This document shows, piece by piece, positions 56,699-59,658 of a stretch of 64,000 nucleotides of DNA. The stretch comes from the human T2T-CHM13v2.0 reference genome, Homo sapiens. The notes under the pieces are model-generated. The model was not told where the DNA came from. It saw only the letters and a program-made list of their open reading frames with translations, and made no database searches. The DNA lies in NCBI RefSeq assembly GCF_009914755.1, contig NC_060938.1; one strand, 5' to 3'. Each line of letters begins with the position of its first letter. Within the stretch, counting starts at the first letter, position 1. A program made the translations under genes and the position numbers.

Positions 56699-59658
56699 TT
56701 TTATTATACTTTTAAGTTTTAGGGTATATGTGCACAACGTGCAGGTTTGTTACATATGTATACATGTGCCATGTTGGTGTGCTGCACCCATTAACTCGTC
56801 ATTTAGCATTAGATATATCTCCTAATGCTATCTCTCCCTCCTACCCCCTCCCCACAACAGGCCCCGGGGTGTGATGTTCCCCTTCCTGTGTCCATGTGTT
56901 CTCATTGTTCAATTCCCACCTACGAGTGAGAATATGCAGTGTTTGCTTTTTTGTCCTTGCAATAATAGTTTGCTGAGAATGATGGTTTCCAGCTTCATCC
57001 TTGTCCCTACAAAGGACATGAACTCATCATTTTTTATGGCTGCATAGTATTCCATGATGTATATGTGCCACATTTTCTTAATCCAGTCTACCATTGTTGG
57101 ACATTTGGCTTGGTTCCAAGTCTTTGCTATTGTGAATAGTGCCGCAATAAACATACGTGTGCATGTGTCTTTATAGCAGCATGATTTATAATCCTTTGGG
57201 TATATACCCAGTAATGGGATGGCTGGGTCAAACGGTAATTCTAGTTCTAGATCCCTGAGGAATTGCCACACTGACTTCCACAATGGTTGAACTAGTTTAC
57301 AGTCCCACCAACAGTGTAAAAGTGTTCCTATTTCCCCACATCCTCTCCAGCACCTGTTGTTTCCTGACTTTTTAATGATCGCCATTCTAACTGGTGTGAG
57401 ATGGTATCTCATTGTAATTTTGATTTTCATTTCTCCGATGGCCAGTGATGATGAGCATTTTTTCATGTGTCTTTTGGCTGCATAAATGTCTTCTTTTGAG
57501 AAGTGTCTGTTCATATCCTTCACCCACTTTTTGATGGCGTTCTTTGTTTTTTCTTATAAATTTGTTTAAGTTCATTATAGATTCTGGATATCAGCCCTTT
57601 CTCAGATGAGTAGATTGCAAAAATTTTCTCCCATTCTGTAGGTTGCCTGTTCACTCTGATGGTAGTTTCTTTTGCTGTGCAGAAGCTCTTTACTTTAATT
57701 AGATCCCAATTGTCAATTTTGGCTTTTGTTGCCATTGCTTTTGGTGTTTTAGACATGAAGTCCTTGCCCAGCCTATGACCTGAATGGTATTGCCTAGGTT
57801 TTCTCCTAGGGTTTCATGGTTTTAGGTCTAACATGTAAGTCTTTAATCCATCTTGAATTAATTTTTGTATAAGGCGTAAGGAAGGGATCCAGTTTCAGCT
57901 TTCTACATATGGCTAGCCAGTTTTCCCAGCACCATTTATTAAATAGGGAATCCTTTCCCCATTTCTTGTTTTTGTCAGGGTTGTCAAAGATCAGATAGTT
58001 GTAGATATGTGGCATTATTTCTCAGGGCTCTGTTCTGTTCCATTGGTCTATATCTCTCTTTTGGTACCAGTACCATGTTGTTTTGGTTGCTGTAGCCTTG
58101 TAGTATAGTTTGAAGTCAGGTAGTGTGATGCCTCCAGCTTTGTTCTTTTGGCTTAGGATTGACTAGGCAATGCAGGCTCTTTTGTGGTTCCATATGAACT
58201 TTAAAAGTAGTTTTTTCCAACTCTGTGATGAAAGTCATTGGTAGCTTGATGGGGATGGCATTGAATCTATAAATTACCTTGGGCAGTATGGCCATTTTCA
58301 CGATATTGATTCTTCCTACCCATGAGCATGGAATGTTCTTCCATTTGTTTGTGTCCTCTTTTATTTCATTGAGCAGTGGTTTGTAGTTCTCCTTGAAGAA
58401 GTCCTTCATATCCCTTCTAAGTTGGATTCCTAGGTATTTTATTCTCTTTGAAGCAATTGTGAATGGGAGTTCACTCGTGATTTGGCTGTTTGTCTGTTAT
58501 TGGTGTATAAGAATGCTTGTGATTTTTGCACATTGATTTTGTATCCTGAGACTTTGCTGAAGTTGTCTACCAGCTTAAGGAGAGTTTGGGCTGAGACAAT
58601 GGTGTTTTCTAGATATACAATCATGTCATCTGCAAACAGAGATAATTTGACTTCCTCTTTTCCTATTCGAATACCCTTTATTTCTTTCTCTTGCCTGATT
58701 GCCCTGGCCAGAACTTCCAACACTATATTGAACAGGAGTGGTGTGAGAGGGCATCCTTGTCTTGTGCCCGTTTTCAAAGGGAATGCTTCCAGTTTTTGCC
58801 CATTCAGTATTATATTGGCTGTGGGTTTGTCATAAATAGCTCTTATTATTTTGAGATACGTCCCATCGATACCTAATTTATTGATAGTTTTTAGCATGAA
58901 GCGTTGTTGAATTTTATCAAAGGCCTTTTCTGCATCTATTGAGATAATCATGTGGTTTTTGTCGTTGGTTCTGTTTAGATGCTGGATTACATTTATTGAT
59001 TTGCATATGTTGAACCAGCCTTGCATCCCAGGGATGAAGCCCACTTGATCATGGTGGATAAGCTTTTTGATGTGCTGCTGGATTCGGTTTGCCAGTATTT
59101 TATTGAGGATTTTTGCAGGGATGTTCATCAGGGATATTGGTCTAAAATTCTCTTTTTTTGTTGTGTCTTCACCAGGCTTTGGTATCAGGATGATGCTGGC
59201 CTCATAAAATGAGTTAGGGAGGATTCCCTCTTTTTCTATTGATTGGAAGAGTTTCAGAAGGAATGGTACCAGCTCCTCCTTGTACCTCTGGTAGAATTCA
59301 GCTGTGAATCCATCTGGTCCTGGACTTTTTTGGTTGGTAAACTATTAATTATTGCCTCAATTTCAGAGCCTGTTATTGGTCTATTCAGAGATTCAACTTC
59401 TTCCTGGTTTAGTCTTGGGAGAGTGTATGTGTCGAGGAATTTATCCATTTCTTCTAGATTTTCTAGTTTATTTGCATAGAGGTGTTTATAGTATGCTCTG
59501 ATGGTAGTTTGTATTTCTGTGGGATCGGTGGTGATATCCCCTTTATCATCTTTTATTGCATCTATTTGATTCTTCTGTCTTTTCTTCATTAGTCTTGCTG
59601 GCGGTCTATCAATTTTATCTTTTCAAAAAACCGGCTCCTACACAAAAAACCGTTCAAA
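56699..59658 (-). mobile_element. L1-C: 5'-truncated/inverted L1PA4/5-like element in intron 5, sense to the host gene
   Basis: ORF2 RT and C-terminal fragments plus 3'UTR; TSD TAACCTTTTTTTCTT at 56684-56698 and 59659-59673. Confidence 0.94.

What the first reader, a model, noticed from the sequence alone, without database searches (positions are those of the whole stretch)
58613..58810. Perfect 198-bp gene-conversion tract between two inverted L1s of different subfamilies that bracket SIX6OS1 exons 6-16
Seen: 58613-58810 (L1-C, minus) is the exact reverse complement of 31398-31595 (L1-B, plus), with zero mismatches and CpGs intact. Within 58640-58769, L1-C differs from its otherwise closer relative L1-A (about 7420-7580) at 11 sites, and all 11 match L1-B. 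These include odd variants AAAACGGGC, CTCACACC, CTGTTCAATATA and TTCGAATAGG (peptide GCPLTP...KGIRIGK in both). Immediately outside the tract L1-B and L1-C diverge again. Inference: a recent non-allelic conversion from L1-B into L1-C across about 27 kb. The two elements have therefore paired in the germline, and a crossover there would invert 11 exons of a fertility gene.
Basis: partly seen in the sequence, partly recalled or inferred. Interest (0 to 1): 0.85.

Follow-up and report, generated by a model that had tools for sequence, protein, structure and literature searches.

The report
Gene conversion patch between inverted L1s
Two old, oppositely oriented L1 retrotransposon copies in introns of the meiosis gene C14orf39/SIX6OS1 share a perfect 198-base patch that one copied from the other, a clean but ordinary example of repeat-to-repeat gene conversion.

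Summary
Window 58613-58810 (-) is the exact reverse complement of 31398-31595 (+). The match is maximal at 198 nt, and flanks differ at about 10%. Chance is excluded: 0 of 20000 permutations reach 198 (median 59), and a run of 11 B=C sites arose in 1 of 200000 shuffles. Genome-wide, only these two places carry the sequence. L1-C is otherwise closer to L1-A (94.2%) than to L1-B (90.5%).

The direction B to C is supported by new tests:
- L1-A matches the majority of 29 C-type relatives at all 198 columns.
- The patch differs from that majority at 11 sites. About 11.6 are expected from a B donor and 4.4 from a C donor.
- The patch carries the B-type state at both columns where the two groups' majorities differ.

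"Recent" is only loosely bounded, to within the last third of L1-C's residence time. A crossover would invert exons 6-16. However, the pair is only 90.5% identical overall, while L1 pairs known to mediate inversions have a median of 97%. Checking against other assemblies was not possible. This is a new instance of a known process, of modest interest.

The parts
58613..58810 (-). Converted (recipient) tract in L1-C. The maximal tract is 198 nt. The minimal tract, 58640-58769 (130 nt), is set by the outermost informative sites.
   Evidence: Exact reverse complement of 31398-31595. It holds 11 sites foreign to C's lineage and 0 C-private sites.
31398..31595 (+). Donor tract in L1-B. It lies in the reverse-transcriptase coding region of L1 ORF2 and ends just after the FADD box.
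   Evidence: The translation is open through the tract. Pfam RVT_1, E = 5e-25.
56693..59639 (-). L1-C: a 5'-truncated L1 copy of about 2.95 kb in intron 5 of C14orf39, in sense to the gene, with an A-rich tail at its low-coordinate end.
   Evidence: blastn alignment to L1-A and L1-B. Tail seen. Intron assignment from the hub's exon table.
28069..33501 (+). L1-B: an older-type L1 copy of about 5.4 kb in intron 16, antisense to the gene. The part aligned with L1-C is 30589-33501.
   Evidence: Inverted-repeat pairs with L1-A reach down to 28069. Alignment with C. A-rich 3' end at about 33500. The nearest genomic relatives of its flank are only 92-93% identical, against 95-97% for C's flank.
5488..8440 (-). 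L1-A: the comparison copy of C's lineage, part of a longer element. Its homologue of the tract is 7405-7602.
   Evidence: 94.2% identical to L1-C. 0 differences from the majority of 29 C-type relatives within the 198 columns.
31596..58612 (.). The 27,017-nt interval between the arms. A crossover within the tract would invert it. It contains exons 6-16 of C14orf39 (11 exons, 1180 nt in total, not a multiple of 3).
   Evidence: Coordinates. Exon positions from the hub's gene table. The exon sum is my own arithmetic.

Best explanation
A single non-crossover, non-allelic (ectopic) gene conversion copied 130-198 nt from the older L1-B (intron 16, + strand) into the younger-type L1-C (intron 5, - strand), 27 kb away in inverted orientation.

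Inferred mechanism: a DNA break inside L1-C's dead reverse-transcriptase region was repaired with L1-B as template. Repair would have run by synthesis-dependent strand annealing or a short heteroduplex, on the same chromatid, the sister or the homologue, and resolved without exchange of flanks.

Shown here: the unique shared identity, its statistical excess, the B-type character of the tract, and unchanged parental types on both flanks.

Inferred only: the break-repair pathway, meiotic versus mitotic germline timing, and the date (within the last third of L1-C's residence time).

The event has no evident function. Its only lasting effect is the longest perfect inverted homology in this region.
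For: (1) Exact 198-nt identity, against 9.6% and 15.5% mismatch in the adjoining 521 and 58 nt.

(2) 0 of 20000 permutations reach 198; 1 of 200000 shuffles give a run of 11 B=C sites.

(3) Uniqueness. In the whole genome, of 40 scored candidates (3083 in the first look), only the two window places are 100% identical; the next best is 96%. A scan with a 54-nt core holding 5 of the variants, allowing up to 2 mismatches, found 3 places: the two arms exactly, and one chr6 copy with 2 mismatches.

(4) Incongruence. Outside the tract C groups with A (217 sites where B stands alone, against 82 for A and 78 for C, over 2967 columns). Inside the tract the counts are 0, 11 and 0.

(5) Direction.
- At all 11 sites A's state is the majority among 29 relatives picked by C's left flank. 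It holds 25-29 of the 29 at ten sites and 17 of 29 at 58685.
- Among 20 relatives picked by B's left flank, the tract's state occurs in 10 of 19 at 58691 (1 of 29 in C-relatives), 13 of 18 at 58685, 4 of 20 at 58757 (0 of 28) and 2 of 19 at 58640 (0 of 28).
- The log-likelihood ratio for the B-relative profile over the C-relative profile is +3.79 for the tract and -8.21 for L1-A.
- The tract's 11 differences from the C-type majority compare with 11.6 expected from a B donor and 4.4 from a C donor (Poisson P(X=11) 0.118 versus 0.0035).
- 24 of 29 C-relatives differ from their own majority at 7 or fewer sites. The 20 B-relatives have a median of 9.

(6) No crossover. B keeps B-type sites and C keeps A-type sites on both sides of the tract, and the exon order in the hub's table is intact.
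Against: - No second human assembly, raw reads or ape orthologue could be examined. An assembly, polishing or cell-line origin, and the pre-conversion state of L1-C, are therefore untested.
- Only 2 columns in the tract separate the two reference groups' majorities, so the state-based direction evidence is modest (ln LR 3.79).
- The B-flank relatives form a heterogeneous set, 92-93% identical to B.
- In the 28 loci chosen by similarity to the tract, B-like flanks correlate with sharing of tract states (Spearman 0.85). Part of this is a selection effect: older copies must share more sites to rank among the best hits.
- L1-A's complete lack of private changes in these 198 columns is itself unusual. 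About 5 would be expected from its rate elsewhere (my arithmetic; no call computed it).
- No PRDM9-type 13-mer lies in or near either arm. The one hit in the window, at 34738, is at chance level, so nothing points to a meiotic hotspot.
Confidence: 0.82

Rival explanations
1. Gene conversion in the opposite direction: L1-C was the donor and L1-B the recipient.
For: The bare pattern (B=C differing from A at 11 sites, 5.6%) equals the ordinary A-C divergence of 5.8%, so it does not exclude this. Four of the 11 tract states (58733, 58727, 58668, 58643) are no commoner among B-relatives than among C-relatives.
Against: - L1-A equals the C-type majority at all 198 columns, so all 11 changes would have to be C-private. 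Expected 4.4; P of 11 or more = 0.005.
- The tract has the B-type state at 2 of 2 majority-differing columns, and at 58757 and 58640, where the state is absent from 28 C-relatives.
Confidence: 0.07
2. Artefact or non-germline event: an assembly or polishing error in this assembly, or a mitotic conversion fixed in the source cell line rather than inherited.
For: Only one genome was available, and nothing here tests it directly.
Against: This is inference, not a tool result.
- A 198-nt patch inside a 3-kb element that is 90% identical to its partner is far shorter than the long reads used for such assemblies. It would need at least 11 coordinated base changes with sharp borders.
- Both flanks are contiguous and of parental type.
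Confidence: 0.04
3. No exchange: chance, or a slowly evolving or selected stretch of the reverse-transcriptase region that stayed identical in both copies.
For: The tract lies in the conserved RVT_1 region. The two reference groups' majorities differ at only 2 of 198 columns.
Against: - 0 of 20000 permutations reach 198.
- The shared states are derived and rare, not conserved. The patch differs at 11 and 9 sites from the two group majorities, and the combination occurs nowhere else in the genome.
- Other copies differ from their own majority by a median of 5 to 9 sites in the same columns, so the stretch is not a mutational cold spot.
Confidence: 0.005
4. The chimera formed at insertion: L1-C's cDNA switched templates to an L1-B-derived RNA and back. 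A related variant is a later repair that used a cDNA of B-containing transcript rather than chromosomal B.
For: Both elements sit in one transcription unit, so B sequence is present in the pre-mRNA (hub table). cDNA-mediated conversion is cited for yeast retrotransposons in the review PMC6598467 (passages).
Against: If the patch dated from C's insertion, about 8.7 differences would have accumulated between the two copies over 2 x 198 nt. None is seen (P about 2e-4). The late cDNA variant cannot be told apart from chromosomal templating with these data.
Confidence: 0.03

Closest known systems
Non-allelic gene conversion among dispersed transposable elements (Alu-Alu conversion; conversion among LTRs)
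   Same: A short patch, including non-diagnostic private mutations, moves from one copy to a nearby copy of another subfamily and produces a mosaic element. PMC8230782 (passages) reports 98 Alu type-changing conversions. These include 12 in which an older element overwrote a younger one, as here. It states that sharing of non-diagnostic mutations is frequent. The review PMC6598467 (passages) says the rate depends on distance and identity. PMC4921805 on LTRs was seen only as a search listing.
   Different: Here the partners are L1 copies rather than Alu or LTR elements, in inverted orientation and 27 kb apart. The donor copy itself can be identified because its private variants are unique in the genome.
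Inversions mediated by inverted L1 copies through homologous recombination (e.g. HsInv0341; the LINE-1 rearrangement set of PMC9675761)
   Same: The substrate geometry is the same: two L1s in opposite orientation within tens of kb. In PMC9675761 all 15 TE-mediated inversions had junctions in oppositely oriented elements, and 8 of them were LINE-1 (passages). HsInv0341 is flanked by 6.1-kb L1PA3 repeats that are 98.4% identical (supplementary table of PMC6748972).
   Different: No inversion is seen here, only the non-crossover product. The pair is 90.5% identical, against a median of 97.1% for L1 pairs at inversions. Perfect homology is only 198 nt.
HsInv0347, a recurrent polymorphic inversion near SIX6 and C14orf39
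   Same: It is an inversion mediated by inverted transposable-element repeats (THE1C, 1,592 nt, 99.9% identical, 5.6 kb inverted). Its tag SNP is associated with C14orf39 expression (PMC6748972, main-text passages and xlsx supplements).
   Different: It is a different locus. One of its published primers maps to contig 14 position 54810063, about 124 kb beyond the end of this window. It does not involve L1-B or L1-C and does not cut the gene.

Membership tests
Non-allelic (interlocus) gene conversion tract | A run of identity between paralogous copies significantly longer than flanking divergence allows | tested here: met
   198 nt observed against a permuted median of 59 and maximum of 159; 0 of 20000 permutations reach it.
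Non-allelic (interlocus) gene conversion tract | Phylogenetic incongruence: the recipient groups with its own lineage outside the tract and with the donor inside it | tested here: met
   Site patterns over 2967 columns are B-alone 217, A-alone 82, C-alone 78. Inside the tract they are 0, 11 and 0. Profile ln LR is +3.79 for the tract and -8.21 for L1-A.
Non-allelic (interlocus) gene conversion tract | Transfer of the donor copy's private variants, which are absent from other family members | tested here: met
   Only 2 of 40 scored genome hits are 100% identical; the next best is 96%. The 54-nt core allowing up to 2 mismatches is found at 3 places in the genome, and only the two arms match exactly.
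Non-allelic (interlocus) gene conversion tract | Non-reciprocal, with no exchange of flanks | tested here: met
   Both elements keep their own type on both sides of the tract. The exon order is intact (hub table).
Non-allelic (interlocus) gene conversion tract | The pre-conversion state is seen at the orthologous recipient in an outgroup species or another haplotype | not testable with these tools
   Only this one genome is held. No ape or second human assembly was available.
LINE-1 ORF2 reverse-transcriptase region | The translated sequence matches the reverse-transcriptase domain model | tested here: met
   RVT_1 (PF00078), E = 5e-25, 88.9 bits against a cut-off of 29.6, for window 31200-31706. 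A-rich 3' tails seen. Subfamily names could not be assigned because no repeat library is on hand.
Inverted-repeat substrate of recurrent NAHR inversion | Inverted orientation of two homologous repeats flanking the segment | tested here: met
Inverted-repeat substrate of recurrent NAHR inversion | High identity over a kilobase or more (97-99.9% in documented TE-mediated cases) | tested here: not met
   90.5% over 2939 columns, against a median of 97.1% for L1 pairs (PMC9675761) and 98.4-99.9% for HsInv0341 and HsInv0347.
Inverted-repeat substrate of recurrent NAHR inversion | Both orientations observed in a population or between species | not testable with these tools
   No population or ape data are held. 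A search of papers for C14orf39 / SIX6OS1 / inversion (99 papers hold at least 2 of the 3 terms, 12 listed) turned up only HsInv0347, which is a different locus.

The most novel reading that the evidence does not exclude
The patch is human-specific or still polymorphic and marks an active site of recombination between diverged repeats. The same L1-B/L1-C pairing would then occasionally resolve as a crossover and produce 27-kb inversion alleles. Those alleles would remove exons 6-16 (1180 nt, frameshifting) from the SIX6OS1 message. They would act as recessive null alleles that exome sequencing misses in azoospermia or ovarian-insufficiency patients.
Probability: 0.03. Interest if true: 0.65.

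Novelty: new member of a known kind. Interest (0 to 1): 0.27.

Why it matters
This is an unusually clean case in which the donor copy of a repeat-to-repeat conversion can be named, because its private variants occur nowhere else in the genome. It shows exchange between partners that were at most about 94% identical in the tract before the event.

The practical points are modest:
- Such patches distort divergence-based ages and subfamily calls of L1 copies.
- The event created the longest perfect inverted homology spanning coding exons of a gene whose homozygous loss causes azoospermia and ovarian insufficiency (PMC7895996, title and abstract start in the listing).
- This gives a defined junction to look for in long-read data from unexplained infertility cases.

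No evidence here shows that an inversion has ever occurred.

Tried and rejected
- PRDM9-type 13-mer (motif recalled from memory): 1 hit in the window at 34738, at chance level (35 of 100 shuffles have at least one), and none in either L1. No hotspot argument can be made.
- Other conversion tracts among the three L1s were looked for and not found. The longest A-B run is 55 nt (13118 of 20000 permutations reach it). The longest A-C run is 115 nt (3541 of 20000). The second-longest B-C run is 85 nt, below the permuted 99.9th percentile of 123.
- I first reasoned that 11 A-C differences in 198 nt (5.6%) equal the ordinary A-C divergence, which would favour C as donor. I dropped this once L1-A proved identical to the C-type majority at all 198 columns.
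- HsInv0347 was checked as a possible known inversion of this interval. It lies about 124 kb beyond the window.
I fetched 20 pieces of 320 nt instead. The B-relative set therefore covers only the tract plus 60 nt on each side, and no flank control could be run on it.
- One locus (contig 15, about 81.73 Mb) appears in both the C-flank and B-flank hit lists. It was counted only in the C group.
- I considered a junction-specific search of public prokaryote or viral contig collections for human contaminant reads. I did not run it, because the yield would be low and it would have required typing a stretch that overlaps one already typed.
- L1 subfamily names could not be assigned, since no repeat library is on hand.
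- Supplements of PMC6748972: the PDF files could not be read, and xlsx files 13 and 14 were not searched.

Full report
**Observation**

Window 58613-58810, read on the minus strand, is letter for letter identical to 31398-31595 on the plus strand: 198 of 198. The match cannot be extended by a single base at either end, and it holds two CpGs. On the same ungapped diagonal, the 521 nt to the left carry 50 mismatches (9.6%) and the 58 nt to the right carry 9. It is the longest exact inverted match in the whole 64-kb window; the next are 85, 80 and 77 nt.

**The three elements**

blastn of the L1-C region against the window gives these results:

| Element | Window coordinates | Strand | Identity to L1-C |
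|---|---|---|---|
| L1-A | 5488-8440 | - | 94.2% over 2959 columns |
| L1-B | 30589-33501 | + | 90.5% over 2939 columns |

L1-B extends 5' to about 28069, judged from its inverted homology with L1-A. Both L1-B and L1-C end in A-rich tails.

The tract translates as part of an open stretch of L1 ORF2. That stretch matches the Pfam reverse-transcriptase model RVT_1 (E = 5e-25; translation). The tract stops just after the FADD box.

By the hub's exon table, L1-C lies in intron 5 and L1-B in intron 16 of C14orf39/SIX6OS1.

**Is it more than chance?**

The three-way alignment has 2967 columns. In 217 B stands alone, in 82 A stands alone, and in 78 C stands alone. Inside the tract those counts are 0, 11 and 0.

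- Scattering the 281 B-C differences at random over 2929 columns gave a median longest identical run of 59 and a maximum of 159. None of 20000 trials reached 198, and the analytic estimate is 6e-7.
- Shuffling the 359 variable sites produced a run of 11 B=C sites in 1 of 200000 trials.
- No comparable tract exists for A-B (longest run 55) or A-C (longest run 115). Both are within expectation.

**Is the variant combination common among L1 copies?**

It is not.

- A whole-genome DNA search scored 40 of 3083 first-look candidates. Only the two window places are 100% identical. The next two are 96% and the rest 94-95%.
- A pattern scan used a 54-nt core holding five of the variants and allowed two mismatches. 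It found three places in the genome: the two arms exactly, and one chr6 copy with two mismatches.

**Direction**

Also, 11 of 198 equals the ordinary A-C divergence. I therefore built two reference sets chosen without regard to the tract:

- 29 copies most similar to C's left flank (95-97% identical).
- 20 copies most similar to B's left flank (92-93% identical). One locus appeared in both lists and was kept only in the C set.

The results were as follows.

- **L1-A as a yardstick.** At all 11 sites L1-A carries the majority state of the C-type set: 25-29 of the 29 at ten sites and 17 of 29 at 58685. L1-A has no difference from that majority anywhere in the 198 columns. All 11 changes are therefore foreign to C's lineage.
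- **Count of changes.** The flanks give a B-alone substitution rate of 135 in 2312 columns and a C-alone rate of 51 in 2312. A B donor predicts 11.6 changes and a C donor predicts 4.4. Eleven are seen (Poisson P(X=11) 0.118 against 0.0035; P of 11 or more given 4.4 is 0.005).
- **Diagnostic columns.** The two sets' majorities differ at only two columns of the tract (58691 and 58685). The tract has the B-type state at both.
- **Further sites.** Two further tract states occur only in the B set: 58757 in 4 of 20 against 0 of 28, and 58640 in 2 of 19 against 0 of 28.
- **Profile likelihood.** The log-likelihood ratio is +3.79 for the tract and -8.21 for L1-A.
- **Typical divergence.** The tract's 9 differences from the B-set majority are typical of that set (median 9). 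Its 11 differences from the C-set majority are atypical: 24 of 29 members differ at 7 or fewer sites, 2 differ at 11, and 3 are partial alignments with gaps.
- **Tract-selected loci.** Among the 28 loci picked by similarity to the tract, copies with B-like flanks share more tract states (Spearman 0.85). The excess is concentrated at 58757, 58691 and 58640. Part of this correlation is a selection effect, so I give it little weight.

Taken together, B to C is favoured at roughly ten to one or better.

**Date**

The two copies show no difference over 2 x 198 nt. If the patch were as old as L1-C, about 8.7 differences would be expected. The event therefore falls within the last 34% of C's residence time (95% bound; median 8%).

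Converting this to years needs substitution rates that I only recall (roughly 0.5-1.3e-9 per site per year). These put the bound somewhere around 6-15 million years. 'Recent' is thus relative, and the event may predate the human-chimpanzee split.

The same calculation rules out a chimera formed when L1-C inserted.

**Mechanism (inferred)**

A break in L1-C was repaired from L1-B without crossover. Both elements keep their parental type on both flanks, and the gene's exon order is intact. The tract is 130-198 nt long.

Before the event the partners differed at 11 or more of these 198 positions, so this was recombination between diverged sequences. No PRDM9-type motif is nearby. Meiotic and pre-meiotic timing cannot be told apart.

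**Consequence**

A crossover in the tract would invert 27,017 nt holding exons 6-16. Their summed length is 1180 nt (hub table, my arithmetic), which is not a multiple of three, so an allele lacking them would be a frameshifted null.

Homozygous mutations of this gene cause azoospermia and ovarian insufficiency (PMC7895996, listing), and the mouse gene is essential for fertility (PMC5095591, listing). Such an inversion would therefore be a recessive allele.

The risk looks low:

- L1 pairs at documented inversions have a median identity of 97.1% (PMC9675761, passages).
- The inverted repeats of the recurrent inversions HsInv0341 and HsInv0347 are 98.4% and 99.9% identical (PMC6748972 supplement).
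- This pair is only 90.5% identical.

HsInv0347, the known inversion associated with C14orf39 expression, lies about 124 kb beyond this window and is unrelated to this pair.

**Comparison with what is known**

Gene conversion among dispersed repeats is well documented for Alu elements, including older elements overwriting younger ones and frequent sharing of non-diagnostic mutations (PMC8230782, passages). It is reviewed for transposable elements generally in PMC6598467 (passages).

My four paper searches found no description of this particular tract. This is a new, well-resolved instance of a known process, not a new kind of thing.

**Limits**

- Only one genome could be examined. An assembly, polishing or cell-line origin is judged unlikely by reasoning, not by test.
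- Subfamily names were not assignable.

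Noticed in passing
window 17844-18371: An AT-rich minisatellite with a 27-nt period and about 21 copies at 92% matches. Its core (17876-18107) has perfectly identical copies. It lies about 1.9 kb beyond the 3' end of C14orf39. It is likely length-polymorphic, but this was not examined.
   Followed up: partly
about 124 kb beyond the window end (contig 14 position 54810063): The known recurrent polymorphic inversion HsInv0347 lies here. 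It has THE1C inverted repeats of 1,592 nt at 99.9% identity, with 5.6 kb inverted. Its tag SNP is an expression QTL for C14orf39 (PMC6748972). A published primer was used to place it.
   Followed up: partly
window 7405-7602 (L1-A): L1-A has no difference at all from the majority of 29 same-type copies across the 198 columns homologous to the tract. About 5 private changes would be expected from its rate elsewhere (my arithmetic). This is probably chance and remains unexplained.
   Followed up: no
window 5488-11200 and 28069-33501: L1-A and L1-B form a second, longer inverted pair of about 5 kb at 85-93% identity. It brackets the last two exons (17 and 18) of C14orf39 (hub table). It shows no conversion tract: the longest identical run is 55 nt.
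   Followed up: yes
window 35450-36154: A fourth L1 3'-end fragment lies here, 91.9% identical to L1-C and 95-96% identical to the 3' ends of L1-A and L1-C over 299 nt. It does not cover the tract region.
   Followed up: no
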